The notes under the pieces are model-generated. The model saw nothing but the letters and a program-made list of their open reading frames with translations. It did not search any database and had not been told where the DNA came from. Positions 24,592 through 38,896 of a stretch of 64,000 bases of DNA are shown here, piece by piece. A program made the translations under genes and the position numbers. This DNA is from Nitrospirota bacterium (GTDB lineage: Bacteria; Nitrospirota; UBA9217). Every line of letters starts with the position of its first letter. Position 1 is the stretch's first letter. Location of the stretch: positions 34,137 through 98,136 of the forward strand of contig CAVTAJ010000013.1 of NCBI GenBank assembly GCA_963732675.1. The letters are read 5' to 3'.

Positions 24592-24634
24592 CACAGTTAG
24601 CACAGTTAACACAGTTAACATAGATTAACACAAT
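24585..24634. repeat. Nonamer tandem repeat (CACAGTTAA-like, 4-5 copies)
   Basis: ACACAGTTAG CACAGTTAA CACAGTTAA CATAGATTAA CACAATCC, beginning at the stop codon of the upstream gene. Confidence 0.8.
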
Positions 24635-25000
24635 CCTGTGATTGTCAGCAGCAACCCTTGTTCGAAATGAGTCTTTACCGCATCACAAGATGCGCCAGTC
24701 CATTCCTTAACACGCAATTCAATATCGTTTTATTGCTGCAATATCAAGCAATTAAGAAACATTGCCACGAAAAATAGACGCCATGAAAAATAGAGCTTGT
24801 TTTTAGTTTGAGAATTATATATAACTATGACTACGTAGAACGTTTTTATAATCCCGGATGTTTCTCCGAACATCTCATGGAAAATTGAATAAGTTTTCGA
24901 GTGATCAAACAGTGAAAGGGGGGGGAACGTCTGATGAGATCAAAGCAACTGCTTACGTGTTTCATCTTTCAAACTATTTTTTATAGGGGGGAATAGTATT

Positions 25001-26419
25001 ATGGAAGAGAGAAAAAATCAGATAAAGGCCTTCGCGGTACTGGGCATGATGATCCTCATCAGCCTCCTGTACTACAAGGCAAATGTATACTACATGTACC
25101 TGGTCGTATACATCTGGTTCGGTCTTGCTTATGGCATGATGCTTCAGTACGGCAGATTCTGTTTCGCGTCGGCGTCCCGGGACCTGTTTGCCGCCGGAGT
25201 CCCGAGAATGGCCGTCGGCATCCTGATCGCGCTCATCTTTTTCAGCGCAATCCAGGCAACACTCGCGGCTACCAACATGAGCACTTTCCATCCGGCTCCG
25301 TTCGGCATCCACACACTGATCTCGGGGATGATTTTCGGGGTCGGGATGGTCCTTGCCGGCGGATGTGCCTCGGGATCTCTGTATAAGATCGGCGAAGGCA
25401 ACGGCACGTCGATCCTGTCCATCCTCGGAATATCCTTCGGTCAGGCGATCTTTGTTGACGTCGGCGGTCCATTCCTGAAACTGGTACCCGATTCCTGGAT
25501 GGCATCCACCGCGGCAAAGCACCTTCCTGCCGACAAGGTCACCTCCTGGTTCGACTACTACCTCACCGGGTACGTCTGGGACAAACCCTCTATTCAGCTT
25601 TCACACACGGCGATATTCTCAAATGCCCTCCCGGGCGCCTCAAAATACTTCATCGCCGATGCGCTCATCAGCGCTATCATTCCCGCCCTTGTGCTGATCA
25701 TCGTCATCTATGCCTTCTACATCCGGAAAGGGTTCATCAAAAAGCGGTCAAAACAAACCGGTAAACCAGCCGGCCTTTCTGACCATTTCGCCGGGATGTG
25801 GAGCATGCTGACAGCGTCCAAGCGGACCTCTATCATGGGTGTCATCATCGGCATCACCGCCGGACTTCACATCTTCGTCATGAAGGGTATGCAGATCAAA
25901 TTCGGCGTCACCAATTTCGGAACACTCCTCACGAAGATGGGGCATGCCGCGGACACCAGCATCCGGGGCACGGTATTCGACCCCGGCTACTGGTATATCA
26001 CGACCCAGGAAGGCCAGTTCGGCGCATGGGTCCTTGACAAGCTCGGGTGGAACATGCGGGACAACGTGTTCTTCGGCATCAACAACGGCATCCCCGTGCT
26101 CTGGCACAACCCCGCCCTCTGGATGTCCTTCGGCATCATTTTCGGCGCCATGATCATGGCGCTGATGAGCAAGGAGTTCAAGTTCAAGCTGCCGAAAGGC
26201 GAACTGATCGTATGGGGCCTGTTGGGCGGCACGCTGATGGGACTGGGCTCCCGTCCCGCGCTCGGCTGCAACATCGGCGCCTTTTTCATCCGCGTAGCGG
26301 GCGGCGATCCCAGCGGCTGGCTGTATGGCATCGGCATGGTGACCGGCGCGTTTGCGGGTGTCAAGTTCTTCAACTGGTGGTCAGAGAGAAAGATGGCGGC
26401 TGAGATGGCGGATTTTTAA
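25001..26419 (+). CDS. YeeE/YedE-family sulfur-compound (thiosulfate-type) transporter, long form
   Basis: Family Cys motifs GRFCFASASRD, LAGGCASGSLYKIGEG and LGCNIGAF. At 472 aa it is longer than the second copy in this window (366 aa from M22), owing to central insertions. Confidence 0.85.
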   Translation: MEERKNQIKAFAVLGMMILISLLYYKANVYYMYLVVYIWFGLAYGMMLQYGRFCFASASRDLFAAGVPRMAVGILIALIFFSAIQATLAATNMSTFHPAPFGIHTLISGMIFGVGMVLAGGCASGSLYKIGEGNGTSILSILGISFGQAIFVDVGGPFLKLVPDSWMASTAAKHLPADKVTSWFDYYLTGYVWDKPSIQLSHTAIFSNALPGASKYFIADALISAIIPALVLIIVIYAFYIRKGFIKKRSKQTGKPAGLSDHFAGMWSMLTASKRTSIMGVIIGITAGLHIFVMKGMQIKFGVTNFGTLLTKMGHAADTSIRGTVFDPGYWYITTQEGQFGAWVLDKLGWNMRDNVFFGINNGIPVLWHNPALWMSFGIIFGAMIMALMSKEFKFKLPKGELIVWGLLGGTLMGLGSRPALGCNIGAFFIRVAGGDPSGWLYGIGMVTGAFAGVKFFNWWSERKMAAEMADF

Positions 26420-26476
26420 TGGAAATCCGGTAACCACACTATATAACCTACAATTACTAAAAGGAGGCTCTTTGTC

Positions 26477-26728
26477 ATGGCAATGAAATTTGAAAAAAAA
26501 GGTGAAGGTGTCTTTGCGCTCGATGTGTGCGGCTATGTGTGCCCCCATCCCCAGATCTATTGCAAGAAGTCGCTGGAGAAGATAGCGGAGGGTGAGGTGC
26601 TCGAGATGACCTTCGACAATCCCTCATCGGCGGAAACGATCCTACAGATGCTCGATCAGGCCGGTCATGAACTGATGGAGAAGAAGAACGAAGGCGGGAA
26701 AATCGTCTTCAAGATCAAAAAGGGCTAA
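26477..26728 (+). CDS. TusA/YeeD-like sulfur carrier protein
   Basis: 83 aa. LDVCGYVCPHPQIYCKKSLEKI has the CPxP motif. It lies immediately downstream of yeeE-like, as in YeeE/YeeD pairs. Confidence 0.85.
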   Translation: MAMKFEKKGEGVFALDVCGYVCPHPQIYCKKSLEKIAEGEVLEMTFDNPSSAETILQMLDQAGHELMEKKNEGGKIVFKIKKG

Positions 26729-26760
26729 GAAGCCCTCCGATCCAATTTCAAGGAGGCTAT

Positions 26761-27147
26761 ATGAAAGCACCACTGACAATCCTTATTGCGATCATGGTGT
26801 GCATTATCGGTTTTCTGGTGATTTACAGCCAACAGCGTGAGACGATTGCAACAGCCGCGCCTGCCCAGGCAGGCTCAGGCGGTTATGGTTCATCGCCTGC
26901 TGCACCGGCATCAGGCGGCTATGGTGCCTCACCGGCTGCTCACGCGGCAGGCGGCTACGGCGCTGCACCGGCGGCTCCCGCGGCAGGCGGCTACGGTGCT
27001 GCACCGGCGGCTCCCGCGGCAGGCGGCTACGGTGCTGCACCGGCGGCTCCCGCTGCGGGTGGATACGGTGCTGCACCGGCTGCTCCCGCGGCAGGCGGCT
27101 ACGGTGCTGCTCCGGCGGCTCCCGCTGCGGGTGGATACGGAAAATAG
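26761..27147 (+). CDS. Membrane-anchored Gly-Tyr/Ala-Pro tandem-repeat protein
   Basis: RBS AAGGAGG. N-terminal TM helix LTILIAIMVCIIGFLVIY, then about 8 copies of (A/S)GGYG(A/S)(A/S)PAAPA. The protein ends with GGYGK. Confidence 0.7.
   Translation: MKAPLTILIAIMVCIIGFLVIYSQQRETIATAAPAQAGSGGYGSSPAAPASGGYGASPAAHAAGGYGAAPAAPAAGGYGAAPAAPAAGGYGAAPAAPAAGGYGAAPAAPAAGGYGAAPAAPAAGGYGK
26866..27141 (+). repeat. 36-bp in-frame tandem repeat (about 7.5 copies)
   Basis: The unit GCGGCAGGCGGCTACGGTGCTGCACCGGCGGCTCCC is repeated with few substitutions and encodes AAGGYGAAPAAP. Confidence 0.9.
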
Positions 27148-27282
27148 TACCCGCGTGACCAAAGCGCCGTACTGTTTACAGCATGAGCGGGCATCCCCTG
27201 CTGAAAAACGGGCATCTGCTTCTTGATTGATGCGATGAATGGTGAGCGCTTTGAATCGGCACCATCGTAAAAGGAGACAAGC

Positions 27283-27747
27283 ATGGAAAAGGTTCTCATT
27301 GCTGTAGACGATACTAAAGGCACAAAAAAAGCTTTTTCCGCATACAGTAATTTTTGCGCCTGTATGCGTCCGAAGGTCATCAATTTGGTTTATGTGGAAA
27401 AATTCGAAGGCAGCAAATCACTCATCGATGAAATGCTTGGTGATGCGGAAATGGACACCCTGCGAGATGTGTTGAAGGGCACTGCATATCAGGGGGCATT
27501 GGACAAGAAAGCGCGGACCATTCTTACGTATTACAAAAAAGCCCTCGAACAGAAGGGTTTAAAAGGGATCAAAACCATCGTCAGAAATGGTCACCCTGCC
27601 GAAGAGATCTTGAAAACGGCAAAGGAAGTGAAGGCGGACCTCATCATCGTCGGTTCGCGGGGGCGAAGGACCACGCGACTGTTCATGGGAAGCGTCAGCA
27701 GGGAAGTCGTGGACAACGCGGATGTGCCTGTGCTGGTCGTGAAGTAG
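27283..27747 (+). CDS. Universal stress protein (UspA family)
   Basis: MEKVLIAVDDTKGTKKA.. and C-terminal IIVGSRGRRTTRLFMGSVSREVVDNADVPVLVV. Confidence 0.85.
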   Translation: MEKVLIAVDDTKGTKKAFSAYSNFCACMRPKVINLVYVEKFEGSKSLIDEMLGDAEMDTLRDVLKGTAYQGALDKKARTILTYYKKALEQKGLKGIKTIVRNGHPAEEILKTAKEVKADLIIVGSRGRRTTRLFMGSVSREVVDNADVPVLVVK

Positions 27748-27948
27748 CTAAAGGTACTTCAAAGAATTAATTCCTTCCCGGCATCAGGGCGGCTGGTTTC
27801 ACTTGATGTCGGGAAGGGATACATCAGGTATTCTCATTTCTGTGCCGGCATATGGAATCATCGGCATAACAGATCGTGTCTCGTGGTCGGTCATGATGAA
27901 GGTTGTATTACCTCCCGTGTTCAATTCACAAATACACTCTCGGGTGAT

Positions 27949-29365
27949 ATGGTGCGCGGCTCTAACAAGGACATCCTCATTTTAGGCGGCGGCCTCTCCG
28001 GCCTTTCGTCGGGCTACCTCCTGTCTAACGCGGGTTTCACCGTCAAAGTATTCGAACGTGATACCACGGTAGGTGGTCTGTCGAAAACGGTCGAAAAGAA
28101 CGGGTTCCGTTTTGATCTCGGGGGCCATCGTTTTTTTACCACAGACGACAAGATCAATGCGTTCGTCCAGGCGTTGATGGGCAGCGAGTTGATCTCCGTT
28201 CAACGCAGCAGTAAGATCTATTTACGCAATAAGTACTTCGACTACCCCCTGAAACCGCTCAATGCCATATTCGGCCTCGGCCTCATGACTACTGCCGGGA
28301 TCCTCGCAGATTATATCCAGGAAACGATCAAGCGCACGATCTGGGAAAAAGAAACCGTATCGCTCGAGGACTGGGTTGTCACCAATTTCGGCCGCACTAT
28401 GTTCAATATCTACTTCAAGGAATATAGTGAAAAGGTCTGGGGAATCGATTGCAGCAGGATCAGCGCAACATGGGTCGCCCAGCGCATCAAAGGACTTGTC
28501 CCTGGCTAAAGCGGTAAAGAACGCCTTCATCAAGTTCGGCGGCAAGGACCTGCCCACCCTGACAGACAGTTTTTATTACCCTACCCTCGGCATCGGGCGT
28601 CTGTCCGACCGGCTCAGGGATGAGATCGTTAGAAACAACAACGTCTTCACCGAATCCCGAGTGGTCAGCGTTAATCACGCCGATTTCAGGGTTGAGAGCA
28701 TCTCTGTTGATCATCAGGGCCAGATGCGGACGTTTCCTGCCGATGAGTGCATATCCAGCATTCCCCTTACCACGCTCGTCAGCATGCTCAGGCCCTCTCC
28801 ACCAGCCCAAATTCTCGAAGCCGCCGCACGCCTTAAATTCCGGGACCTGGTAATCGTGGCGATCATGGTGGACCGGAAGCGAGTCACTGACCAGACCTGG
28901 ATCTATATCCCCGAGCAGAAGATCCCCTTCGGCAGGATCCATGAGCCGAAGAACTGGAGTCCTGCCATGGCCCCGCCGGACAAATCGCTCCTGGTCATGG
29001 AATTTTTCAGTTTCAAGGGTGACCGGGTCTGGACTATGAGCGATGATAAGCTCACCGACCTCACGGTCGACAACCTTGTCCAGCTCGGTTTTATCCGTAA
29101 ACAGGAGGTCCTGGACAGCATGATCGTGAGGGTGCCGAAGGCTTATCCCCTCTTCGAGGTCGGTTACCTGAAACATGCTGATGTGCTCCATGATTACCTG
29201 GGTCGCTTCAGCAACCTTCATAGTGCAGGCAGGAGCGGCATGTTCCGTTATTATAATATGGACGTTGCCATTCGTTCAGGCATGGAGACCGCGGAGAAGA
29301 TCATCCGGGAGTCCTACTCTGTTGACACCATGGATCTTGACGAATTGGTCCTCGCGAACACATAA
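27949..29365 (+). CDS. FAD-dependent oxidoreductase (amine-oxidase / UDP-galactopyranose-mutase-like), one frame break
   Basis: Dinucleotide-binding ILILGGGLSGLSSGYLL..VFERDTTVGGL. ORFs 27883..28509 and 28376..29365 join near 28495 (WVAQRIKGL|SLAKAVKNAF). Confidence 0.7.
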
Positions 29366-29455
29366 TGCATATATAAAGTGTGCACTCGTCATACCCGCCT
29401 GGGTCCCCGAAGAGATCTTTTCCTCAAACACCGCATGTTCGCAGATCATCCCTCC

Positions 29456-29495
29456 TCACCTCCCCTTAACAAGAAGGGGTTGGGGAGGTGATTTT
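29456..29495 (+). terminator. Rho-independent terminator after the oxidoreductase gene
   Basis: Stem TCACCTCCCC (29456-29465) / GGGGAGGTGA (29482-29491), then TTTT. Confidence 0.5.
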
Positions 29496-29656
29496 CGATC
29501 ATGTCGTCTCTATTATGAGATGATTAATAACTGCGGAAGTACGTAAATTATCTTACAAGAGTACAAACTATTCTCTCTTTTCTAAAGGGTACAAACTACT
29601 TATATGCTGAGGAAGCAAACGGGAACTCAATATGAGTCAGGAGGACGGTCTAATCT

Positions 29657-30100
29657 ATGACAACCGATAACAAGAAAAATATCAACAAAAAGAAATTCCT
29701 GGCGGTGATGCGACGTCCGGCCTTCTATATTCTGATCAATTTCTTTTTAGTAAATACTCTCTTTGCATTTCTTCCGTATGGTCTCGGCGACATTCTCTAC
29801 AATCTCGGCAGGATCTCCATTATTTTTTATGCGGGATGGCTTGTACTACGGAAAAAGCTGGGGACTATCCGGCATGCGGCGCTGACCGGCATGTTCATGT
29901 ACTTTATCGATCATGTCCTGTTAAAAGGCGGAATTTTTCTCTTGAATTTTATGTTTAAACCTGAGGGACTGGGATTTGCCGCATTCAGCGGTGTCATTGT
30001 TTCCTTTATCTTGTTCATCCCCCTGGCGATGTCAGTCGGTGCGATGGGAGGCTTATTTGCGCGATCCGGAGAAGAAAGAACTTCGGTCGATTCGCAGTGA
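29657..30100 (+). CDS. Hypothetical integral membrane protein (4 TM)
   Basis: 147-aa ORF with four hydrophobic segments, preceded by the RBS-like sequence AGGAGGA. No family recognised. Confidence 0.5.
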   Translation: MTTDNKKNINKKKFLAVMRRPAFYILINFFLVNTLFAFLPYGLGDILYNLGRISIIFYAGWLVLRKKLGTIRHAALTGMFMYFIDHVLLKGGIFLLNFMFKPEGLGFAAFSGVIVSFILFIPLAMSVGAMGGLFARSGEERTSVDSQ

Positions 30101-30147
30101 ACTAACTATTCACACGTTTTTCTCAAAAGGAAGAACTGTCCCGCATT

Positions 30148-31811
30148 TCATTTCGCTCCCTGCAGGGGAAGGGTAATCACAAAGCGGGAACCCTTATTGA
30201 GCTCGCTCTCTACCGTGAGGCTTCCGTTGAGTTCCTTGATGATACTGTAACTCACTGCGAGGCCCAAACCCGTTCCCTTCTCTTTGGTTGAGTAAAAGGG
30301 GTCGAAGATCCTGCTGAGGTTCTCTTGAGCGATGCCAACTCCCGTATCCTCAAACTCGATGACGATAGTGCCGTCTTGTACCCTGCTGCGTATCGTGAGC
30401 GTCCCCCCGTTCTGCATGGAGTCCGCCGCATTCAAGACGATGTTCACGAAAGCCTGGGAGATCTGGTTTCCGTCTGTGGCGATTGCCGGCATATCAGGCT
30501 GGAGGTCCCGTATAATAGTGATGTCCTGTACCCTCTTATCATACTGGAGGAGAGACAGGGAATCCTCTATAAGGTTGTTTACCTTGCAGGGTTTGACCTC
30601 TATAGGCGTCATCTTCGAAAAACCTGACAACTGTTTCAAGATTTCCGAGATCCTGTTCATATGGAAAAAAATGGTCTCGAGCGTCTCCCTCTTAAACTCA
30701 TCATCCTCCCGGTCCATTAACACATCGATAAAAGAGAAGACGGAGGTCAACGGATTCCCTATTTCGGAGGTGATGCCCGACGTCAATCGTTCAAAGGACG
30801 CGAGCTTTTCAGAACGTATCATCTCGAGTTCCTTCTCGTGTCTCTCGCGTTCTTCTGCTTTCTCCCGTCTCCGATTTATGACGATCAGCCATGCTGAGAC
30901 GCTGACGGTCATCACAAAAATCAGGATAATGATCCATACATATATTTTCATGGACCTTTTGATCGACAGCGTGACCTCGGAATAGGGGGCCGACACCGCC
31001 ACGATCCACCGCGCGTCCCCGACCAAGACGACGGAAAACGCCAGGATCTTGTCCTCGCCGGTCGGAGACAGCGTACCGTCCACACTGTTCGCCGGTGCAG
31101 AAATCCACCCTGCCCGATATGATCTTCTGCTCCACGTCAAAGTTCTTGTGGCATGCAAAACAGGAGGCGTCGGTCTTGTGCAGATTTCTGCCCACCATGG
31201 TGGGCTGCGCGGGATGATACAGGAGGTAGCCCTTATCGTCCATCATCCAGGCGTAGCCGCGCGTGCCGGATTTGATGGAGCTGAGGAAGGTCTTGGCGAT
31301 GTCCTGGATGTCCATGGAGATCACAACCGCGCCGATGATGGAGTCCTGGCGACAAATCGGCGTTATGATGGCTACCAGGCCGTCGTCGTGCAGCATCCTC
31401 GCGTTTCCGGGGCACAGCGGTTTCGCCCACGCGACCACGCTTTTTTCATCAAGCCCCGCCGCATGCACGTTGCCCCGCGTGTAGACAATCCTTCCCCGCG
31501 TGTCCAGAAACTCTATCCGCTTCTTGACACTGGCCGCGTCCGTAAAGAGAACGTCCGTCATCAGTTTATAGTTCAGATAACTTGCTGTCCCGCAGCAGCG
31601 ACGCGAACTGGGCGATGTGGTACAGTTCGTCCTGTATGTTGTTCAAATAGTCCTTGATGTTCTTCGCCTCCGCGTTGGCAAGGAGGAGCTGCTGGTTGTT
31701 GAACTGCTCCGCCATCTCCATCTGGACGGTCCGCTGCAGCGCAATGCTCAAGGTGATGAGCGCCGCGACTATGACGACAAAAATCCCTATGATCATAACA
31801 GTGCGTTTCAT
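30148..31811 (-). CDS. Sensor histidine-kinase-like protein with periplasmic CXXCH domain (two frame breaks)
   Basis: ORF pieces 31566..31811, 30809..31561 and 30148..31158 join as TM - periplasmic domain (CFACH at 31148-31162) - TM - dimerisation region - HATPase_c (NIVLNAADS, EDTGVGI, GTGLGLAVS). Breaks lie near 31585 and 31105. Confidence 0.75.
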
Positions 31812-31834
31812 ATCATCGTCCCACCTTTGCTCGC

Positions 31835-33238
31835 CTATTCATCGAGCCCCATCGCCTTCAGTCGTTTCCAGAGCGTGACCCTGCTGATCCCGAGTTGTTT
31901 GGCGGCAAGCGTCCTGTTGCCCTTGTGCATTGAGAGGGCCGTGCGGATATCGTCCGGGTTCACGCGGCGTTCGCTTGCCTCCGATTTTTTCTCGTAGATC
32001 AGATAGTCCGGAAGGTCCGTGACCTCGATGATATCGCCCTTGCAGGTGGCCGCGCTGTGCTCCAGAGCGTTGATGAGACGCCGCACGTTCCCCGGCCAGG
32101 GAAAGTCAATGAGCATCTCCATCGCAGCGGGGCTGATGCTGCGGATGTCCTTATTATTGATCGATGAGATCTTCCTGATATAGTGGAGCGCGATCAGGGG
32201 GATGTCTTCCTTCCGTTCGCGCAGCGGCGGGACCTTGATGATGATAGAATTGATCCGATACAGGAGGTCTTCCCGGAACTTGTCCGCGTGGATCATGCTG
32301 CCGAGGTCCTTGTTCGTTGCCGACAGGAGCCGGATATTCACGGAGATCGGCTTGTTCTCCCCGACGCGCTCCACCACCTTCTCCTCCAGGACCCTCAGGA
32401 GCTTCACCTGCATGGTCATCGGCATGTCCCCGATCTCGTCGAGAAAAATGACGCCGTCGTGGGCCGCCTCGAAGCGGCCGATCCGGTCGCTCAACGCCCC
32501 GGTAAAGGAGCCTTTCCGATGCCCGAAGAGCTCGCTTTCCAGCAACTGCTCGTTCAGGGCCGCGCAGTTCATCTGGATGAACGGCCCCGCCTTGCGCCTG
32601 CTCAATTTGTGGATCGCCTGGGCTACCAGGTTCTTGCCCGAGCCGCTTTCTCCCAGGATCAGGACCGGGGCCTCGCTCGCAGCGGCATTCCGTATGTGCT
32701 CGAACAATCTCTGCATGGGGATGCTCTTCCCCAGCAACCCCATGAACCAGTAGTCCTGCCTCACCTCTTCCTTCAGGCCCTGCAGTTCCATTTCCTTCTT
32801 GTAAAGAGACGTCATATCCGTCATCGACTCGATCGTACCGAGGATCTCGCCATGGTCGTCCCTGAGAACTACAGCGTTTTTTAACAGACGCATGGACTTT
32901 CCATCAGCCGATTGCATCCGGCATTGCTTGTTGTAAATGAATTCGAATTTTTCGGCGTTCGTATCCGGCTGCCCTCCGGATTCATCTAGGGCCAAACAGG
33001 CATCACAATGGAACAGAGTGCATTCTTTCCCCAGGACCTCTTCCTTCCGATAGCCGGTCATTTCTTCGGCTGCTCGATTAAATAAGAGGATGCGGCCCTT
33101 GTTATCCACCACCATAAGGCCGTCCCTGAGGACTTGCAATACTTCCGGCAACAACTGCAGGTCTTTTATTAATTTATCCAGCATGCTCGTAGAATGATGA
33201 GATTGTTTCCATGACATGGTCAAGAATAACATCTGCAC
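31835..33238 (-). CDS. Sigma54-dependent transcriptional activator, PAS-AAA+-HTH (no receiver domain)
   Basis: PAS-like N-domain (LFNRAAEEMTGYRKEEVLGK). Walker A GESGSGKN, GSFTGA loop (GAFTGA variant) and VIFLDEIGD. Fis-type HTH NRTLAAKQLGISRVTLWKRLK. Confidence 0.9.
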   Translation of the reverse strand: MQMLFLTMSWKQSHHSTSMLDKLIKDLQLLPEVLQVLRDGLMVVDNKGRILLFNRAAEEMTGYRKEEVLGKECTLFHCDACLALDESGGQPDTNAEKFEFIYNKQCRMQSADGKSMRLLKNAVVLRDDHGEILGTIESMTDMTSLYKKEMELQGLKEEVRQDYWFMGLLGKSIPMQRLFEHIRNAAASEAPVLILGESGSGKNLVAQAIHKLSRRKAGPFIQMNCAALNEQLLESELFGHRKGSFTGALSDRIGRFEAAHDGVIFLDEIGDMPMTMQVKLLRVLEEKVVERVGENKPISVNIRLLSATNKDLGSMIHADKFREDLLYRINSIIIKVPPLRERKEDIPLIALHYIRKISSINNKDIRSISPAAMEMLIDFPWPGNVRRLINALEHSAATCKGDIIEVTDLPDYLIYEKKSEASERRVNPDDIRTALSMHKGNRTLAAKQLGISRVTLWKRLKAMGLDE

Positions 33239-33564
33239 GCATAATTATCAAGACAAAAAGCGCTGATATTACGGGGGAATCCCGCTTCAGCGCACAGGGG
33301 ATACCTTCTCTTCCATTTCACCTCATCTACGCTCAACTGTTTTCGACTGCCGAATTTCGGGTTATCCAATGAACGGCAGTTGGACGCAGATGAACTAAAG
33401 CCAAGTGTTGATAAAAAAGTGCTGGTTTTGCATCTGATATTCGTCAAATAGGTGACTTCGTTTTTGAATATCTGCGTCCAAATGATTTCTTAAGGATAAT
33501 ACGTCAGCATGGTAAGAACAGGGGACGCGGTTGATCTGTCGGGAACAAGCTCTTAAAATACTGT

Positions 33565-33604
33565 AAAAAAAAGGACGGCTCCATTACACACCCCGGAGCC
33601 GTCC
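33565..33604 (-). terminator. Rho-independent terminator after the second yeeE-like gene
   Basis: 10-bp perfect stem GGACGGCTCC (33573-33582) / GGAGCCGTCC (33595-33604), followed on the minus strand by T8. Confidence 0.75.
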
Positions 33605-33624
33605 TTCTCTGTTAAAATGCCAGG

Positions 33625-34722
33625 TTAGTCCTGCATCGGCCTGATCAGTTTGAAGTAGACCATCGTCCAGTTGCCGAGGATGATGGAGGTGATCGCCACG
33701 AGGCTCGAAACTGCCATCGCGGACATGCCGGTAATGCCGTGGCCGAGATTGCAGCCGCCGGCGATGACCGCACCGATTCCCATCAGGATGCTGCCGAAGA
33801 ACACCGTCAGGAACTCCGCAGCCGGAGGGATCTTCCACTTGAATTCCTTGAGCGCAAGGGCGCTCAGCCATGCGCCGAAGGGCACGGAAAGAATGAAGAA
33901 CATGCCCCAGGAGCCGCGGAAGATACCCAGAAAGCTGAATTCAGGGAAGCTTGAATGCGTGCTCTTGGTAAGAAGAACATAGAAAAATTCTCTGATCGGA
34001 CCGCTGACTGCCATGCCGCGCGGCGCGCCGCCGAAATAGGAGGATACCCACCACGCGATAACGGTCAACAAACCGATCGCAACGCCGGTGGTGCCCCAGG
34101 CAAAGCCTCTTGTCTTAGACTTGAACTCCGGCTTGCCTGCGAAAACAAAGGTCAACACGCCGACGGCAAAGATCGCGATCGTGATCCATTTCAGCGCTGG
34201 ACCGCCGCCGAAAATGTCCCAGACAGCGGGACTTGTCGTGCCGTTGATCTCGACCGAGAAGCCCTTGAGATAATTGTTGATCGGGCTCAGCAGACCATCG
34301 GCGGTCATCACCGCGCCGAAGAAAAACCCGAGGATCGCGATGAGGGCGGACAACTGTCCCTCGCCGAGACGATATACGATACCACTGGCGCATCCTCCGG
34401 CAAGAACGATCCCGAGGCCGAAGAGAAATCCGCCAAGGACGTTCGCCACCGGCACAAAGCTCTGGCGCATGAGCGCCACCGATTCAAGGGCGCCGCTGTC
34501 GGCATTGATCACCTGAAGGAACCCCAAATCTTCCAACAGATTTGAACCTACGATCGCCACGACCAAGGCGAGAAGATAGGACCTGAAAAGTGTATAGTCC
34601 TTCATGAAAATGATGTCACGAAACGCTGAATTCAGACAAAAACGACCTCTCTGCAAAATTAAACCAAGAGCGAGACCCATCAAGATCGCGGTCCCAAAAG
34701 AAAAAAAACTGCTATGCAGCAT
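33625..34722 (-). CDS. YeeE/YedE-family sulfur-compound transporter (second copy)
   Basis: RGRFCLNSAFRD, LAGGCASGIVYRLGEG and IAGGCNLGHGITG. RBS GGAGGGGGG precedes ATG 34722 (the ORF track starts at 34785). Confidence 0.85.
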   Translation of the reverse strand: MLHSSFFSFGTAILMGLALGLILQRGRFCLNSAFRDIIFMKDYTLFRSYLLALVVAIVGSNLLEDLGFLQVINADSGALESVALMRQSFVPVANVLGGFLFGLGIVLAGGCASGIVYRLGEGQLSALIAILGFFFGAVMTADGLLSPINNYLKGFSVEINGTTSPAVWDIFGGGPALKWITIAIFAVGVLTFVFAGKPEFKSKTRGFAWGTTGVAIGLLTVIAWWVSSYFGGAPRGMAVSGPIREFFYVLLTKSTHSSFPEFSFLGIFRGSWGMFFILSVPFGAWLSALALKEFKWKIPPAAEFLTVFFGSILMGIGAVIAGGCNLGHGITGMSAMAVSSLVAITSIILGNWTMVYFKLIRPMQD

Positions 34723-35045
34723 ACGCTTCCCCCCTCCAGCATGATTGAATGGATTTTCACATCTTCTTTTTACTGATTCACGCATATCTGTTCGCTGCCA
34801 ATGATGATTCTCTGTCTCCTCCTTCCTTTACGCTGATTGTGTTCCTCCTGTTCATGCTCCGACTTCATCGGGACCGTGCAAACATCCGATACATGATGAT
34901 GCTAATCTATCTATTGGCTCAACTATAATACACTACCTGCGAAAAAAAGTGAAGGGTCTCGTAACGATACAGCATCGAGATCCTTCACGGTTGGAGGGCA
35001 TCCACTAATGTATGATCAAACTCGGCAACGAGACCTTCTGTAAAG

Positions 35046-35570
35046 CTAGTTGCTTCCCTTGAGGCTGACCGAAGCCGCTGCTGACCAGGCGTACTTCTCC
35101 GCCTCGGTCGGGTTTTTCGCGACCAGAACGGGCACCGGAGCGTTCTTCTCGATCTCTTTGCTCACGGACCCGGAGATCATCCGCTGCATGATGGTCTTGC
35201 CATTGTAGCCGGTGATGATCAGCTCGGCGCCCTCCTCCTGAGCGACCTTCATGATCTCTTCTGCCGGTACGCCGTTACGGATCACGGTCTTGACGTTTAC
35301 CAGCCCGCCGTTGTCCAGCTCCTTCCGGTAAAAGTTCAGGATCTTCTCCGACTTCCTGTCAAGGGCTTCCTTGTATTCCGTGCCCTTCAGCGATTCCCTG
35401 AGAGTGGACATCTCGGCCTCGCCGAGCATATCGATCATGAGCGACTTGCCCTCGAGCTGCTGGACATGCACCAAGACCACGCTTTCGGGCGGCCGGACCA
35501 TGTTGCAGAACACCGACAATACTGACTTTGAACCCTCTGTCTCATCTACTGCTATCAATACTTTCTTCAT
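35046..35570 (-). CDS. Universal stress protein (UspA family)
   Basis: RBS GGAGG, then ATG 35570. MKKVLIAVDETEGSKSV.. and IITGYNGKTIMQRMISGSVSKEIEKNAPVPVLV. Confidence 0.8.
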   Translation of the reverse strand: MKKVLIAVDETEGSKSVLSVFCNMVRPPESVVLVHVQQLEGKSLMIDMLGEAEMSTLRESLKGTEYKEALDRKSEKILNFYRKELDNGGLVNVKTVIRNGVPAEEIMKVAQEEGAELIITGYNGKTIMQRMISGSVSKEIEKNAPVPVLVAKNPTEAEKYAWSAAASVSLKGSN

Positions 35571-35621
35571 AACGTCCTCCTTGTAATATACGTCCACACG
35601 TTGTGTGAATGATTTTTTCGC

Positions 35622-36209
35622 TTAATGGACCACCAGCAAACCTCTTTGAAGAATCACGCCCAGAAGGAACAGGGCGAGCATAATTGCAGTCGTAACGGAA
35701 ACCGCGGCGTAGGCATCTCTCTTGGTAAACGGCTCCTCGCACATCAGCGGTCGTTTTGCCACGAGCACGGGGACCTTCGTGTTCTTTTCCACATATTGGG
35801 CCACCGTCCCGGTAATGAAGCGATCGACCCCCCGTTTGCCGCTCTGTCCAAGGATGATCAGTTCCGCGCCCTCTTCGGCCGCAACCTTGAGGATCTCCTC
35901 GGACGGAATGCCCTCCCGCCTCACCTTCTTGATGGTAAATGAGCCGTTCTGAGCCAGCTCTTTTTCATAATTGGCAAGGATCAGGTCGGACCGTTTGTCC
36001 AATGCCGTCTTGTGATCGCTGCCTTTGAGCATATCCTTCAGGGTCGACATCTCCGGATCGCCCAGCATATCGATGATCAGCGATCTTCCCTCCAGTCTTT
36101 CAACATGCAGCAAAACGACCTCCGCTGGATGCTGGACACAATTATTAAAGACAGATAGAACATTTTTCGATCCTTTTGTATCATCAACTGCTATCAGTAT
36201 CTTTTTCAT
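35622..36209 (-). CDS. Universal stress protein with C-terminal transmembrane anchor
   Basis: MKKILIAVDDTKGSKNV.. and ILGQSGKRGVDRFITGTVAQYVEKNTKVPVLV, plus the terminal hydrophobic helix AAVSVTTAIMLALFLLGVIL. Confidence 0.8.
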   Translation of the reverse strand: MKKILIAVDDTKGSKNVLSVFNNCVQHPAEVVLLHVERLEGRSLIIDMLGDPEMSTLKDMLKGSDHKTALDKRSDLILANYEKELAQNGSFTIKKVRREGIPSEEILKVAAEEGAELIILGQSGKRGVDRFITGTVAQYVEKNTKVPVLVAKRPLMCEEPFTKRDAYAAVSVTTAIMLALFLLGVILQRGLLVVH

Positions 36210-36549
36210 GATTCCTCCATGATTTGTATTATCGAATTACAAACTACTATATAGCAATAGCCATGCCAAGTTATTGAATACACGCATTACATTATAAATC
36301 AGTACGTTACAGTTTTTTTATTTTTGTATATTGACAGAATAATGTTAAAATATTAGTTAACGTTAAAAGTGTTAACTTAACAATTAACGCTTTGCTAGAT
36401 AATATGATACAATTTGCAACAGCGGATTATTCAATATGAAGAGCAGGCAGGCGATCTCGGCGAGATCGTTTCGCAGGAATATCTCGCCCCCGGAGAAGGC
36501 CCGCTAATCAGCAGGAAATGGGAGCATGGACTGTCCGCATCGGAAGTGT

Positions 36550-36936
36550 CTATATCAGGGAGAGAACCGTCAGGCCGATCACCAGTGCCAACAGTATGAG
36601 CCCTGCGGCTGCTGCGGTTTTCCGCTGTCGCAGGTCAGTGGCTTTTCCGCTGTCCAGAAACGGGGCCAGGAGCAGCGCGCTGAAAGCAAGGCCCGGCAGC
36701 AGCACAGCGCCCACGAACGTCCATTCGCCGGAAAAGTACTTGGTAAGCTGATACAGAAAAAGAAAATACCATTCAGGCCGCGGGCTGTACTGGGCGGAGA
36801 AGTCTATCTCCCTGCCGATCGGCGGCGGAAACAGGACGGCGAGGAGCAGCACCGCCTCGACCGTGAACATCGCCACGAGCATGATCTCGAAAAAATAATA
36901 GGGAAAGAATTTTTTATCGTTATTACTATCTGGCAT
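36550..36936 (-). CDS. Cytochrome b C-terminal half / subunit IV-like protein of a bc-type complex
   Basis: PEWYFLFLYQL motif and three hydrophobic helices. It lies directly downstream of the cytochrome b6-like gene. Confidence 0.8.
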   Translation of the reverse strand: MPDSNNDKKFFPYYFFEIMLVAMFTVEAVLLLAVLFPPPIGREIDFSAQYSPRPEWYFLFLYQLTKYFSGEWTFVGAVLLPGLAFSALLLAPFLDSGKATDLRQRKTAAAAGLILLALVIGLTVLSLI

Positions 36937-36992
36937 GCCAATCCCGCGTGCAGCAAAATCCGCATTGTGGAGCGTTCACCTGACTCCTGACG

Positions 36993-37638
36993 CTACATTC
37001 CCCCTGATATCCCCAGCCTCCGAAGGATATGGAAATGGACCCAGAGAAATAGCACCGTCAAGACCGGGAACCAGAGCATGTGCATACTGTAAAAACGGAG
37101 GAGCGTCTGGCCCGTCACCTCTGTGCCGCCGCGTACCAGGGCGGCGAGATGCGGCCCGAAGAGCGGCATTGAACCGAGCATGTTGGTCCCCACCACCGTT
37201 GCCCAGTACGCCTTCTGGTCCCAGGGAAGCAGGTAGCCCGTGAAACCGAACGCCAGCGTCATCGCCAACAGCAGGGCGCCTGCGACCCAGTTCAGTTCCC
37301 TCGGATTTTTGATAGGAGCCGGTGATGAAGACTCTGAGCATGTGGAGCAGGACCATCACGACCATGAGGTTCGCGGCCCAGTGGTGTATTGAACGGAGAA
37401 GGCCGCCGAGCGGCACGATCTGGTGCAGTCGCTGAATGCTCGGGTACGCCTCCGCCTCGGACGGGATGTAATGAATGGACAACAGCAGACCGGTCAGGAG
37501 CTGCACGATGAACAGGGTGAACGTAACGCCGCCGAAGCAGTAAAAATAGTTGATCCACCCCGGTATCGGCTTGTCCATCACTCTCCGGTGTCTGCTGGTG
37601 ATTCCCATGCGGGCATTGAGATAGTCGAGAATTTTCAT
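36993..37638 (-). CDS. Cytochrome b6-like (N-terminal half of cytochrome b), one frame break
   Basis: [35 protein letters not shown] joins [37 protein letters not shown].. after a 1-nt correction in the CAAAAAT run at ~37295. The ORF pieces are 36976..37638 and 36993..37268. Confidence 0.8.
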
Positions 37639-37642
37639 CGTC

Positions 37643-38095
37643 CTACACCTTGACCCCGACGAACAGCATGCCGTCCTCCATCTTCAGGGGGAACCGCGTA
37701 AGCGGCGCGGGAGGCGGGCCGGCAATGTTCCTGCCGGTCAGATCATACCGTCCCCCATGACAGGGACAGACGAACTCATGCTTTTCCTTGTGATAATTGA
37801 CAAGACATCCGAGGTGAGAGCAGGTGGCGGAGAACACGTCAGGGCCTTCGGGAGACGAGACGATAAAGACCCTGGCTTTCCTTTCTTTGCCCAGGACAGC
37901 AAACGTAAGCTCCATCTTTTTCACACCGACCCGTGGGACCTCCTCCTCGGCAAGGAGCGGGAAATAGGCCAGCTCCTTATCACGGCTCTTAACGGGAGCA
38001 ACTATCGTGGTAGCGGGGACCAGGAACCCAAACCCGAGCAGAACGAGCACCCCGGTGAGCGCCTTTTTGATGAAATCCCGTCGGCTGGTTTCCAT
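37643..38095 (-). CDS. Rieske 2Fe-2S subunit with Tat signal
   Basis: Twin-arginine motif SRRDFIKK. Rieske boxes CSHLGC and CPCHGG. Confidence 0.9.
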   Translation of the reverse strand: METSRRDFIKKALTGVLVLLGFGFLVPATTIVAPVKSRDKELAYFPLLAEEEVPRVGVKKMELTFAVLGKERKARVFIVSSPEGPDVFSATCSHLGCLVNYHKEKHEFVCPCHGGRYDLTGRNIAGPPPAPLTRFPLKMEDGMLFVGVKV

Positions 38096-38230
38096 GGTTT
38101 ATCATATTACGACAGAGTGGGGAAGGGAGTCAATCGCAATTCTCCGATCTCATGAACGAATATGCAATCTTCCCTGCTGAGTTTTCTTTTTCGTGCCTGT
38201 GGACAATGCTGTCATGGGAGGGAAAGCACC

Positions 38231-38860
38231 CTACTGTGGATTATAGCCAGCCGGGCAATAATTGAAACTGCCGATCTGGAAAGTGGATTGCGCAGCTACC
38301 GTAAAGCTTACGCCATTTTCACTATGCCCTTCGAAGGTATAGGTGGCGATGTAATTGTTAAGATCGCCCGGGCTTGATTGATAGACGCCGGACTGCAAAT
38401 CGGCCAAATACTTGTTTTTTCGCACCAGATCAACAAACGTTGCTGATGTCTCCACCGAAACAGTGCTGGCGCCGCTCACCAGGAAACTGAGTGCCATTTC
38501 CCGGCTGTCCGCCTGAATGAGAGGTGCGCCGGGCGAATCCGCAGAGCTATTGTAATTAATGGTGTATCGATCTATAGAGACGGTCATATCCTTGATAATA
38601 TTACCCGGGTTAATAAGACGCGCGCTGATCGACACGGTCGCGCCATGGTCGGCAAAATATTCAGCTTGAGTTGAACTCCCGCTCACACACGTATCCTGGA
38701 CAGCGTCAACTGAAGTTGTGCTGACCGCATTGTAGGTCGGCGTTATCGTTGCGCTCACGGTAACACCCGGGCTGTCTTTACTGCCTCCTCCGCAGCCTCC
38801 CAGAAGAAGTGCATTGAAGAGAATGCCGATAATCATATAGTAAGGAAGTGTCATCTTCAT
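38231..38860 (-). CDS. Lipoprotein of unknown function
   Basis: Lipobox LLLGGC after a signal peptide. Ser/Thr-rich and beta-rich. It sits between pilQ and the Rieske operon on the same strand. Confidence 0.55.
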   Translation of the reverse strand: MKMTLPYYMIIGILFNALLLGGCGGGSKDSPGVTVSATITPTYNAVSTTSVDAVQDTCVSGSSTQAEYFADHGATVSISARLINPGNIIKDMTVSIDRYTINYNSSADSPGAPLIQADSREMALSFLVSGASTVSVETSATFVDLVRKNKYLADLQSGVYQSSPGDLNNYIATYTFEGHSENGVSFTVAAQSTFQIGSFNYCPAGYNPQ

Positions 38861-38896
38861 ACCGAATCCTCTAAACCCCGCATCGCGGCCCTGTGT

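What the first reader, a model, noticed from the sequence alone, without database searches (positions are those of the whole stretch)
30148..34722. Kinase-like sensor with a periplasmic CXXCH motif and Ser in place of the H-box His, paired with a receiver-less PAS-sigma54 activator beside yeeE
The sensor's extracytoplasmic domain carries a single c-type haem attachment motif, CFACH (31148-31162). Haem-c PAS-like periplasmic sensor domains are known from Geobacter chemoreceptors. In the dimerisation helix the expected ..G(I)AHEI.NPL reads LTSGITSEIGNPL, with the Ser codon TCC at 30766-30768. Changing Ser to His would need two substitutions, so this is not an indel artefact. The ATP-binding boxes look intact. 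The adjacent activator has PAS, AAA+ (GSFTGA) and HTH domains but no receiver domain, so a canonical His-Asp relay is not encoded locally. The pair sits directly upstream of the second yeeE-like gene on the same strand. This suggests a redox- or sulfur-responsive, non-canonical signalling unit controlling sulfur uptake. I could not find a convincing -24/-12 promoter by eye.
Basis: partly seen in the sequence, partly recalled or inferred. Interest (0 to 1): 0.6.

Follow-up and report, generated by a model that had tools for sequence, protein, structure and literature searches.

The report
Histidine-less haem sensor controlling YeeE operon
A membrane sensor in sulfur-cycling Nitrospirota looks like a histidine kinase but has lost the histidine it would need, sits beside a sigma-54 activator that has no receiver domain, and most likely controls a stress-protein/sulfur-transporter operon by direct binding, so it appears to show a two-component system turning into a NifL-NifA-like switch.

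Summary
The motifs are real. CFACH lies at 31162-31148 and the Ser codon TCC at 30768-30766, exactly at the phospho-His position. The neighbouring activator is PAS + AAA+ (GSFTGA) + HTH with no receiver.

- The sensor is split over three frames by two single-base insertions. These are almost certainly assembly errors, because nine independent metagenome and metatranscriptome runs lack them.
- The pair lies downstream of yeeE, not upstream.
- A conserved sigma-54 promoter (36269-36254) with a TTAAC-repeat enhancer heads a Usp-Usp-YeeE operon. RNA contigs cover only that operon.

Comparative evidence from 76 Nitrospirota loci:
- All 39 sensors followed by a REC-sigma54 activator keep His.
- Sensors preceded by the PAS-sigma54 activator form one nested clade. 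There His was replaced about seven times (S, Q, N, Y, D, R).
- In that clade the ATP boxes, the DHp domain (dN/dS 0.02-0.12) and CxxCH stay conserved.

Best reading: a periplasmic haem-c double-Cache sensor controls its activator without His-Asp phosphotransfer, in the manner of NifL-NifA. The haem motif sits in a dCache_1 domain, distinct from the published sCache_haem family. I class it as a new variant of a known kind; the biochemistry is untested.

The parts
36341..36390 (-). Enhancer-like array of GTTAA/TTAAC repeats (gcgttaattgttaagttaacacttttaacgttaactaatattttaacatt), about 75-120 nt upstream of the -24 element. It is the presumed binding site of the PAS-sigma54 activator.
   Evidence: Sequence. 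The same repeat array sits at the same distance in all 17 related loci inspected. TTAAC clusters occur at only two places in the 64-kb window, and only at this position in relatives.
36254..36269 (-). Sigma-54 (-24/-12) promoter TGGCATGGCTATTGCT. GG is at 36268-36267 and GC at 36256-36255.
   Evidence: One mismatch to TGGCAC-N5-TTGC. A [T/A]GGCA[T/C]-N5-TTGC element lies 2-68 nt (mostly 33-68) before the first Usp ORF start in about 20 related loci. RNA contigs reach 36225-36227 and there are none upstream. rpoN is present in the genome.
35622..36209 (-). Usp gene 1 (195 aa, universal stress protein with a C-terminal hydrophobic tail). First gene of the sigma-54 operon.
   Evidence: Pfam Usp 7.8e-21. 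Conserved synteny. Highest RNA contig depth.
35046..35597 (-). Usp gene 2 (probable start at ATG 35570).
   Evidence: Pfam Usp 8.6e-21. Synteny.
33625..34722 (-). YeeE/YedE-family sulfur transporter gene 2 (365 aa from MLHSSFF). Last gene of the operon.
   Evidence: Pfam Sulf_transp 1.1e-66. Homologues of 365 aa sit at the same position in relatives. RNA contigs end at 33637-33658.
33565..33610 (-). Intrinsic terminator after yeeE2: a 17-bp stem followed by U8.
   Evidence: RNA fold -27.6 kcal/mol, z -6.0. Sequence.
31835..33181 (-). Receiver-less sigma-54 activator (448 aa). PAS lies at ~33145-32804 and carries the Cys cluster GKEC-x4-C-x2-C...NKQC. The AAA+ Sigma54_activat domain lies at ~32734-32237 with a GSFTGA loop. 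HTH_8 lies at ~31948-31853.
   Evidence: Pfam. Alignment of 30 homologues shows GSFTGA in 22 and GAFTGA in 8, with Walker motifs. It is the only copy of this type in the genome.
30148..31811 (-). Sensor gene: TM1 - dCache_1 with CxxCH - TM2 - DHp (H-box Ser) - HATPase_c. It would be 553 aa if the two single-base insertions (near 31579-31582 and 31071-31072) were absent. It starts 23 nt after the activator stop.
   Evidence: ORFs and frames. Pfam. Intact homologues at 91-94% identity. Reads.
31148..31162 (-). CFACH, a c-type haem attachment motif in the membrane-proximal module of the periplasmic double-Cache domain.
   Evidence: Sequence. C219, C222 and H223 are invariant in 82 and in 120 homologues. 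Position in the model.
30766..30768 (-). TCC = Ser at the phospho-acceptor position of the H-box (GITSEIGNPL).
30610..30789 (-). DHp / HisKA domain.
   Evidence: Pfam HisKA 30.9 bits against a cut-off of 26.9. It is the most constrained part of the gene, with dN/dS 0.02-0.12.
30160..30474 (-). HATPase_c (GHKL) domain with intact N, G1, F and G2 boxes.
   Evidence: Pfam 1.9e-25. N462, D465, D490, G492, G494 and F504 are invariant.

Best explanation
**Locus layout.** The locus is a self-contained regulatory module of anaerobic, sulfur-cycling Nitrospirota (order Thermodesulfovibrionales and relatives).

**Sensor.** The membrane sensor has a periplasmic double-Cache domain. Its membrane-proximal module carries an invariant CxxCH, most likely a covalently bound c-type haem that reports periplasmic redox state or a haem ligand such as a sulfur species. 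The cytoplasmic DHp-GHKL core descends from an ordinary NtrB/ZraS-like kinase but no longer uses the phospho-acceptor His, which is Ser here.

**Proposed mechanism (inferred).** The sensor does not phosphorylate a receiver. Instead it controls the co-transcribed, receiver-less PAS-AAA+-HTH activator by direct, probably nucleotide-dependent, protein-protein contact. This is how NifL's DH and GHKL domains hold NifA.

**Output.** The activator binds the TTAAC-repeat enhancer and drives the sigma-54 promoter of the Usp-Usp-YeeE2 operon. That sets expression of a YeeE-family sulfur transporter and two universal stress proteins.

**Shown here:**
- domain anatomy
- Ser at the His position
- clade-wide, repeated loss of His coupled to the PAS-type partner
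- purifying selection on the DHp and ATP-binding domains
- conserved promoter and enhancer
- transcription of the operon as a separate unit
- the frame breaks being assembly errors

**Inferred:** haem binding, the signal sensed, physical sensor-activator contact, and the sign of regulation.
For: - **His position.** Ser aligns with the phospho-His of ZraS and KinB. Paralogues read GITHEIGNPL where this family reads GITSEIGNPL.
- **Partner association.** In 76 genome loci, all 39 sensors followed by a REC-sigma54 activator have His. Sensors preceded by a PAS-sigma54 activator have S, Q, N, Y, D, R or occasionally H.
- **Phylogeny.** The PAS-partnered sensors are one clade (SH-aLRT 99) nested among REC-partnered ones. 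Parsimony on that tree needs about 7 independent His replacements, against 0 in the REC-partnered rows.
- **Selection.** S-type genes are under purifying selection (dN/dS 0.08-0.17), strongest in the DHp domain (0.02-0.12). N462, D465, D490, G492, G494 and F504 are invariant.
- **Co-expression.** Activator and sensor are 16-24 nt apart on one strand in the S-type loci (up to about 94 nt in other PAS-partnered loci).
- **Target.** A sigma-54 promoter and TTAAC enhancer are conserved before the first Usp gene.
- **Transcription.** RNA contigs from four metatranscriptomes cover 33637-36227 only. Word depth is 43-323 over most of the Usp genes, about 3-34 over YeeE2, and 0-5 over the regulator genes. 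A terminator follows yeeE2.
- **Prerequisites.** rpoN and cytochrome-c assembly genes are present in the genome.
- **Haem motif.** CxxCH is invariant in 120/120 homologues. H201 and M207 are >=90% conserved and are candidate distal ligands.
- **Precedent.** In NifL-NifA, a kinase homologue without kinase activity binds the AAA+ domain through its DH and GHKL domains, and ADP is required (PMC12998190).
Against: - No direct evidence of sensor-activator contact exists, and no co-fold could be run.
- Five members of the PAS-partnered clade still have His, so phosphorylation could persist in some.
- Ser is kept in 89/92 short-type proteins. This may mean Ser itself matters, for example as an acceptor, rather than being neutral.
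- The E and N of the HExxN motif, which serve kinase and phosphatase chemistry, remain invariant. A purely structural role does not require that.
- Gene order (activator then sensor) and the membrane location differ from NifLA.
- RNA evidence comes from contigs of near-identical populations in other samples, and contig depth is a poor measure of expression.
- Haem attachment is unproven.
Confidence: 0.6

Rival explanations
1. The kinase core is still a phosphotransferase with a new acceptor. It autophosphorylates on the H-box Ser (or Tyr in the Y subclades), or it phosphorylates the PAS-activator on Ser, Thr or Tyr. Other GHKL kinases such as SpoIIAB/RsbW, plant ethylene receptors and the archaeal RdmS/MsmS type do this (recalled from general knowledge, not tested here).
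For: All ATP-binding boxes and the acidic residue next to the acceptor position are invariant. Ser is retained in 89 of 92 short-type proteins down to about 60% identity. Two subclades carry Tyr.
Against: Other subclades of the same PAS-partnered clade carry Gln, Asn, Asp, Arg or Ala at this position, and these cannot be phosphorylated. A common mechanism for the clade therefore cannot depend on this residue. NifL also keeps a nucleotide-binding GHKL domain without kinase activity.
Confidence: 0.15
2. The His-less sensor acts on the canonical sister system. It either forms inactive heterodimers with the His-bearing paralogue (RetS-GacS style) or acts as a dedicated phosphatase for that paralogue's REC-sigma54 regulator. 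Its adjacency to the PAS activator would then be incidental.
For: The genome also encodes the sister pair at C21:93357-97005, namely Cache(CFQCH)-PAS-HK(AGIAHEIGNPL) followed by a REC-sigma54 activator. DHp sequences are similar, and the ExxN phosphatase motif is kept.
Against: Every PAS-partnered sensor with a readable neighbourhood sits 2-94 nt downstream of a PAS activator on the same strand (21 of 21). That is hard to explain as incidental. The kinase core is only 45-51% identical to the genome's own canonical paralogue. The partner label changes once on the tree.
Confidence: 0.1
3. The sensor in this organism is a decaying pseudogene (two frameshifts plus loss of the catalytic His) with no present function.
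For: In the window as given the gene is broken into three frames and lacks His.
Against: Both extra bases are absent from near-identical contigs of five DNA and four RNA runs. Similar single-base insertions hit neighbouring genes about once per 1.5-2 kb, which is typical of assembly error. Intact orthologues with Ser are under strong purifying selection, and there are more than 90 sequence clusters of them.
Confidence: 0.04

Closest known systems
NifL-NifA (Azotobacter vinelandii, Klebsiella): anti-activator plus sigma-54 enhancer-binding protein
   Same: The sensor is homologous to histidine kinases (DH/DHp plus GHKL), keeps nucleotide binding and does not use His-Asp transfer. The partner is a sigma-54 activator with a non-receiver N-terminal sensory domain. 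The genes are adjacent and co-transcribed. In NifL-NifA, control is by stoichiometric binding of the kinase-like core to the AAA+ domain (PMC12998190).
   Different: This sensor is not an orthologue of NifL. NifL is cytoplasmic with FAD-PAS domains, whereas this sensor is a membrane protein with a periplasmic haem-motif double-Cache domain. The activator has PAS rather than GAF. The gene order is reversed. The target is a Usp-YeeE operon, not nif genes. Binding is inferred here, not shown.
ZraS/ZraR and NtrB/NtrC-type two-component systems, including the sister paralogue Cache(CxxCH)-PAS-HK + REC-sigma54 activator in the same genome
   Same: ZraS is the best sequence and structure match for the DHp-CA core (9jfj, E 3.6e-32). 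The Cache-CxxCH input domain is the same as in the sister paralogues, and both have a sigma-54 output.
   Different: The phospho-acceptor His is replaced. The partner lacks a receiver. The gene order is activator then sensor, instead of kinase then regulator. The cytoplasmic PAS domain is lost in the Ser subclade.
sCache_haem (DUF3365/Tll0287, GSU0582/GSU0935) haem-c Cache sensor domains (bioRxiv 10.64898/2026.02.01.703092)
   Same: Both are extracytoplasmic Cache-fold sensor domains with a strictly conserved CxxCH, both are fused to signalling modules, and both are common in Nitrospirota and Desulfobacterota.
   Different: The domain here is a full-length double Cache (dCache_1, profile positions 2-240 of 240). 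There is no PF11845 hit even at E<=1, and no match to 3B42, 3B47 or Tll0287 in a profile search of PDB at E<=10. The motif sits in the membrane-proximal module as a ~5-residue insertion before its helix. This looks like a separate acquisition of the motif.
His-less kinase-like regulators DivL (Tyr for His) and RetS
   Same: Both have a HisKA/HATPase_c fold with the acceptor His unused. Both act through protein-protein contacts. Both appear among the structural matches (4q20, 6dk7/6dk8).
   Different: Those proteins act on other kinases or on receiver proteins (DivK, GacS). None is paired with a receiver-less sigma-54 activator.

Membership tests
HisKA-type sensor histidine kinase (canonical two-component sensor) | DHp/HisKA domain | tested here: met
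   PF00512 scores 30.9 bits against a cut-off of 26.9 on the window's C-terminal piece, and 30.2 bits on the intact P0002.
HisKA-type sensor histidine kinase (canonical two-component sensor) | Phospho-acceptor His in the H-box | tested here: not met
   Ser (TCC 30768-30766) aligns with the His of ZraS, KinB and the sister paralogues.
HisKA-type sensor histidine kinase (canonical two-component sensor) | HATPase_c with N, G1, F and G2 boxes | tested here: met
   PF02518 E 1.9e-25. Box residues are invariant or >=90% conserved.
HisKA-type sensor histidine kinase (canonical two-component sensor) | Cognate receiver-domain partner | tested here: not met
   The adjacent regulator has no Response_reg domain. 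The same holds in 21 of 21 loci of this clade. The genome's related REC-sigma54 regulator sits beside its own His kinase.
NifL-NifA-like anti-activator / enhancer-binding-protein pair (mode of action) | Kinase-like DH+GHKL sensor that does not rely on His phosphorylation | tested here: inconclusive
   His is absent and was lost about 7 times in the clade while the domains stay constrained. Absence of any kinase activity cannot be tested in silico.
NifL-NifA-like anti-activator / enhancer-binding-protein pair (mode of action) | Sigma-54 activator without a receiver, encoded next to and co-transcribed with the sensor | tested here: met
   The activator is PAS + Sigma54_activat + HTH_8. The gap to the sensor is 23 nt on the same strand, and this is conserved.
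NifL-NifA-like anti-activator / enhancer-binding-protein pair (mode of action) | Direct binding of the sensor's DH/GHKL to the activator's AAA+ domain | not testable with these tools
   No multimer prediction or experiment was available.
NifL family (orthology) | Cytoplasmic protein with an N-terminal FAD-binding PAS1 and PAS2 | tested here: not met
   The sensor has two TM segments and a periplasmic dCache_1 domain. The Ser subclade has no cytoplasmic PAS.
sCache_haem (DUF3365/Tll0287, PF11845) | Conserved CxxCH in an extracytoplasmic Cache fold | tested here: met
   Present in 120/120 homologues and in 68 genome-derived sensors.
sCache_haem (DUF3365/Tll0287, PF11845) | Sequence membership: a match to PF11845 or to GSU0582, GSU0935 or Tll0287 | tested here: not met
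   No PF11845 hit at E<=1. The profile search of PDB at E<=10 finds only ordinary dCache structures such as 3lib, 4wy9 and 3li8.
sCache_haem (DUF3365/Tll0287, PF11845) | Covalently bound haem c | not testable with these tools
   This needs haem staining, a pyridine haemochrome assay or mass spectrometry. The genome has cytochrome-c assembly genes.
dCache_1 (PF02743) double Cache sensor domain | Full-length match above the gathering score | tested here: met
   P0002 residues 32-275 match profile positions 2-240 of 240 at 50.8 bits against a cut-off of 45. The window's frame-broken piece reaches 40.7 bits. The AF2 model shows two stacked beta modules.
Sigma-54 enhancer-binding protein with its promoter | AAA+ Sigma54_activat domain with a GAFTGA-type loop and an HTH; a -24/-12 target promoter; rpoN in the genome | tested here: met
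   PF00158 E 4e-69, GSFTGA loop and HTH_8. Promoter at 36269-36254, conserved in relatives. rpoN at C9:54141-54617.

The most novel reading that the evidence does not exclude
This clade may record a two-component phosphorelay being converted into a phosphorylation-independent, NifL-NifA-like partner-binding switch. After a Cache-haem kinase was re-paired with a PAS-type sigma-54 activator, the phospho-His became dispensable and was replaced at least six or seven times. The DHp and ATP-binding domains were kept as an interaction and nucleotide-sensing surface. In addition, its input domain may be a second, independently evolved class of haem-c Cache sensor: a dCache_1 with the haem in the membrane-proximal module.
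Probability: 0.45. Interest if true: 0.75.

Novelty: new variant of a known kind. Interest (0 to 1): 0.62.

Why it matters
How kinase-like anti-activators such as NifL arose from histidine kinases is an open evolutionary question. The 2025 NifL-NifA structure paper (PMC12998190) raises it explicitly.

This family offers living intermediates within one phylum:
- canonical His kinase plus REC activator pairs
- PAS-partnered sensors that still have His
- several lineages that lost His in different ways

That makes the transition directly testable by comparing a handful of orthologues.

It also extends covalent-haem sensing to the double-Cache fold, the most common extracellular sensor fold in bacteria. 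Finally, it identifies the likely regulator, promoter and enhancer of a YeeE-family sulfur transporter operon in sulfur-cycling Nitrospirota, whose sulfur-uptake regulation is essentially unknown.

Tried and rejected
- **Pseudogene reading.** Rejected. The two frame breaks are single-base insertions absent from nine independent runs. The assembly carries similar insertions in neighbouring genes.
- **Alternative acceptor His** (for example FFHMNRI, or the His in MMHSEKLA). The first lies in DHp helix 2 and is equally present in canonical paralogues. The second is Arg in the window. Neither aligns with the acceptor.
- **Membership in the Geobacter/Tll0287 haem-Cache family.** Not supported by sequence.
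- **Long His-bearing paralogue inside the window.** The 680-aa ORF at 44105-46147 has no kinase domains. The paralogue is on another contig.
- **Sigma-54 promoters** directly upstream of yeeE2, of the activator, and of yeeE1. None was found, even allowing 5 mismatches with GG/GC fixed.
- **Second TTAAC array at 24585-24634** as part of the same regulon. It has no sigma-54 site and is not conserved in relatives, so this is left open.
- **The consensus terminator scan** missed the yeeE2 terminator because its loop is 10 nt. Folding confirmed the terminator.
- **The whole-protein fold search** returned only kinase cores and gave nothing on the Cache domain.
- **Literature searches** found no description of this pair.

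Full report
**1. What is in the window**

All relevant genes are on the minus strand. Read 5' to 3' they are:
- Usp (36209-35622)
- Usp (35597-35046)
- a YeeE/YedE-family transporter (34722-33625, Sulf_transp 1.1e-66)
- a strong hairpin followed by U8 (33610-33565; -27.6 kcal/mol, z -6)
- a 448-aa activator (33181-31835)
- 23 nt later, the sensor (31811-30148)

The activator has PAS, Sigma54_activat (4e-69), AAA_lid_14 and HTH_8, and no Response_reg. The sensor pieces hit dCache_1, HisKA and HATPase_c.

CFACH lies at 31162-31148. The Ser codon TCC at 30768-30766 lies inside LTSGITSEIGNPL.

**2. The frame breaks**

Each shift is +1.

Contigs from five independent DNA metagenomes (freshwater sediment, wetland, soil; about 99% identical) each lack one base at ~31579-31582 and one at ~31071-31072. 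Contigs from metatranscriptomes lack them too.

The same comparison shows further single-base insertions in the window at 35031, 36509, 37311, ~33359-33423 and within the amine-oxidase gene. That is roughly one per 1.5-2 kb. The amine oxidase (27883-29365) and the cytochrome b gene (37638-36993) are visibly frame-split.

Homologues at 91-94% identity are intact at 553-555 aa. They read ...RDxKxLxYKL... and ...GRVDFCTGEQCGRYVSPTGEDK... across the two sites. I therefore treat the breaks as assembly errors (about 0.9) and the gene as intact in nature.

**3. Is Ser really at the phospho-acceptor position?**

Yes.
- phmmer alignments to solved kinases place it on the His of ZraS (AAGVAHEIRNPL) and KinB (AASISHEIRNPL).
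- A paralogous ~679-aa type reads GITHEIGNPL where this type reads GITSEIGNPL, within an otherwise nearly identical helix.
- Among the 120 best database homologues, the ~550-aa type has S 89, N 2 and A 1. The long type has H 23, S 2, Y 2 and Q 1.
- ATP-binding residues N462, D465, D490, G492, G494 and F504 are invariant. G514, G516 and G518 are >=90% conserved in 82 sequences.

**4. The decisive comparison**

A scan of one genome per species returned 76 loci, all from Nitrospirota: Thermodesulfovibrionales, Dissulfurispiraceae, Ca. Sulfobium and others. For each I read the H-box residue, the CxxCH motif and the neighbouring sigma-54 activator.

| Partner arrangement | H-box residue |
|---|---|
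| Sensor followed, usually with a small overlap, by a REC-sigma54 activator | His in all 39 full-length rows on the tree |
| Sensor preceded by a PAS-sigma54 activator without REC, usually with Usp and YeeE genes nearby | S, Q, N, Y, D, R, and in a few cases still H |

On a maximum-likelihood tree of 68 sensors, the PAS-partnered ones form a single clade (SH-aLRT 99) nested within the REC-partnered ones. The partner label changes once.

Inside that clade, parsimony by eye needs about seven separate replacements of His: Y twice, and D, N, R, Q and S once each.

The window's Ser subclade additionally lost the cytoplasmic PAS domain, which explains 548-553 aa versus ~679 aa. One member (L015) still has it.

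So the His became dispensable only after the partner switch. Yet the genes are not decaying. dN/dS in the Ser subclade is 0.08-0.17 overall. It is lowest in the DHp domain, at 0.02-0.06 in the two unsaturated pairs.

The same genome also holds the canonical sister pair at C21:93357-97005. It consists of Cache (CFQCH)-PAS-kinase (AGIAHEIGNPL) followed by a REC-sigma54 activator.

**5. The target**

A near-consensus -24/-12 element, TGGCATGGCTATTGCT, lies at 36269-36254. That is 43 nt before the first Usp start.

An equivalent element stands 2-68 nt (mostly 33-68) before the first Usp gene in about 20 related loci. This holds whether the Usp-YeeE operon is co-directional with the regulator pair or divergent from it. 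About 75-160 nt further upstream, every locus has an array of GTTAA/TTAAC repeats. In the window this is 36390-36341. In relatives such clusters occur nowhere else in the fetched loci.

Metatranscriptome contigs from four runs cover 33637-36227 and nothing upstream of 36272. Word depth is 43-323 over most of the Usp genes, roughly 3-34 over YeeE2, and 0-5 over the activator and sensor. This fits a sigma-54 operon bounded by the promoter and the terminator, with weakly expressed regulators behind it.

The genome encodes rpoN. The activators keep the GSFTGA or GAFTGA loop and the Walker motifs.

**6. The input domain**

On an intact orthologue, dCache_1 matches end to end (profile positions 2-240 of 240; 50.8 bits against a cut-off of 45). 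PF11845/DUF3365 is not hit even at E<=1.

A profile of the periplasmic region finds ordinary double-Cache structures in PDB (3lib, 4wy9, 3li8, PctA/B/C). It does not find the Geobacter or Tll0287 haem domains at E<=10.

The AF2 model (mean pLDDT 72) shows a long helix, a distal module (strands 97-169) and a proximal module (strands 187-200 and 256-277). CxxCH (219-223) falls in the low-confidence stretch between the proximal module's strand pairs, as expected for a cofactor site modelled without its cofactor.

C219, C222 and H223 are invariant. H201 and M207 are >=90% conserved and are candidate distal ligands. Cytochrome-c assembly genes are present.

A 2026 preprint describes sCache_haem (DUF3365) as the first Cache domain with a covalent cofactor. 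The present domain appears to be a separate case in the double-Cache fold. Haem binding itself is untested.

**7. Mechanism**

The closest working model is NifL-NifA. NifL is a kinase homologue without kinase activity. Its DH and GHKL domains bind the AAA+ domain of a receiver-less sigma-54 activator, and ADP is required (PMC12998190). The NifL-NifA complex 9qq6 is among the fold matches.

I infer the following chain:
- The haem state of the periplasmic domain is relayed through TM2 to the DHp-GHKL core.
- The core then binds or releases the PAS-activator.
- The retained ATP site serves nucleotide-dependent conformational control.

The activator's PAS domain carries a mostly conserved Cys cluster (GKxC-x4-C-x2-C...NKxC). 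It could add a cytoplasmic redox or sulfane-sulfur input. That is speculation.

Rivals are in the rival list: phosphorylation on Ser or of the activator, action on the sister system, and pseudogene.

**8. Novelty**

Literature searches found no description of this pair or of a haem-motif dCache_1. The mode of action has a clear precedent, so I class this as a new variant of a known kind. Its value is as a natural series of intermediates between a phosphorelay and a NifL-like switch, and as the first candidate regulator of a YeeE operon in these bacteria.

Noticed in passing
window 24000-40000 (for example 26420, ~28480, 33359-33423, 35031, 36509, 37311): Compared with near-identical short-read contigs from several metagenomes, the window carries many single-base indels, mostly extra bases, about one per 1.5-2 kb. 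The amine-oxidase gene (27883-29365) and the cytochrome b gene (37638-36993) are frame-split for this reason. ORF-based findings in this genome should be checked for such artefacts.
   Followed up: partly
window 24585-24634: A second array of ACAGTTAAC repeats sits right after the glycosyltransferase stop and about 370 nt before the long YeeE-TusA operon. No -24/-12 element lies downstream of it. The array is absent from the same position in relatives (L001, L002, L005).
   Followed up: partly
window ~33020-32900 (activator PAS domain); alignment of 30 homologues: The activator's PAS domain has a Cys cluster (GKEC-x4-C-x2-C ... NKQC) conserved in most orthologues, with a variant pattern in the divergent paralogue. 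It is largely lost in two lineages (L032, L047). It may be a metal, Fe-S or thiol/persulfide sensing site.
   Followed up: partly
L001:2197-3546, L002:1786-3132, L012:1-796, L015:6313+, L026:9671+: Many relatives carry a second, paralogous PAS-sigma54 activator transcribed divergently from the Usp-YeeE operon and sharing the TTAAC enhancer region. The window has Rieske/cytochrome b genes at that place, and its genome assembly (89% complete) holds no second copy.
   Followed up: partly
own genome C21:93357-97005: This is the canonical sister system: a Cache(CFQCH)-PAS-histidine kinase with an intact H-box, followed by a REC-sigma54 activator. The kinase is also frame-broken in this assembly.
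   Followed up: partly
window 35046-36209: The two Usp genes reach the highest contig depth of the locus in four metatranscriptomes (ice and freshwater-sediment samples). This suggests the operon is strongly expressed in situ.
   Followed up: no
L045, L046, L048, L050 (REC-partnered sensors): Some canonical members carry a second CxxCH (CPDCH or CSDCH) in the periplasmic domain in addition to the conserved one. They may be di-haem variants.
   Followed up: no
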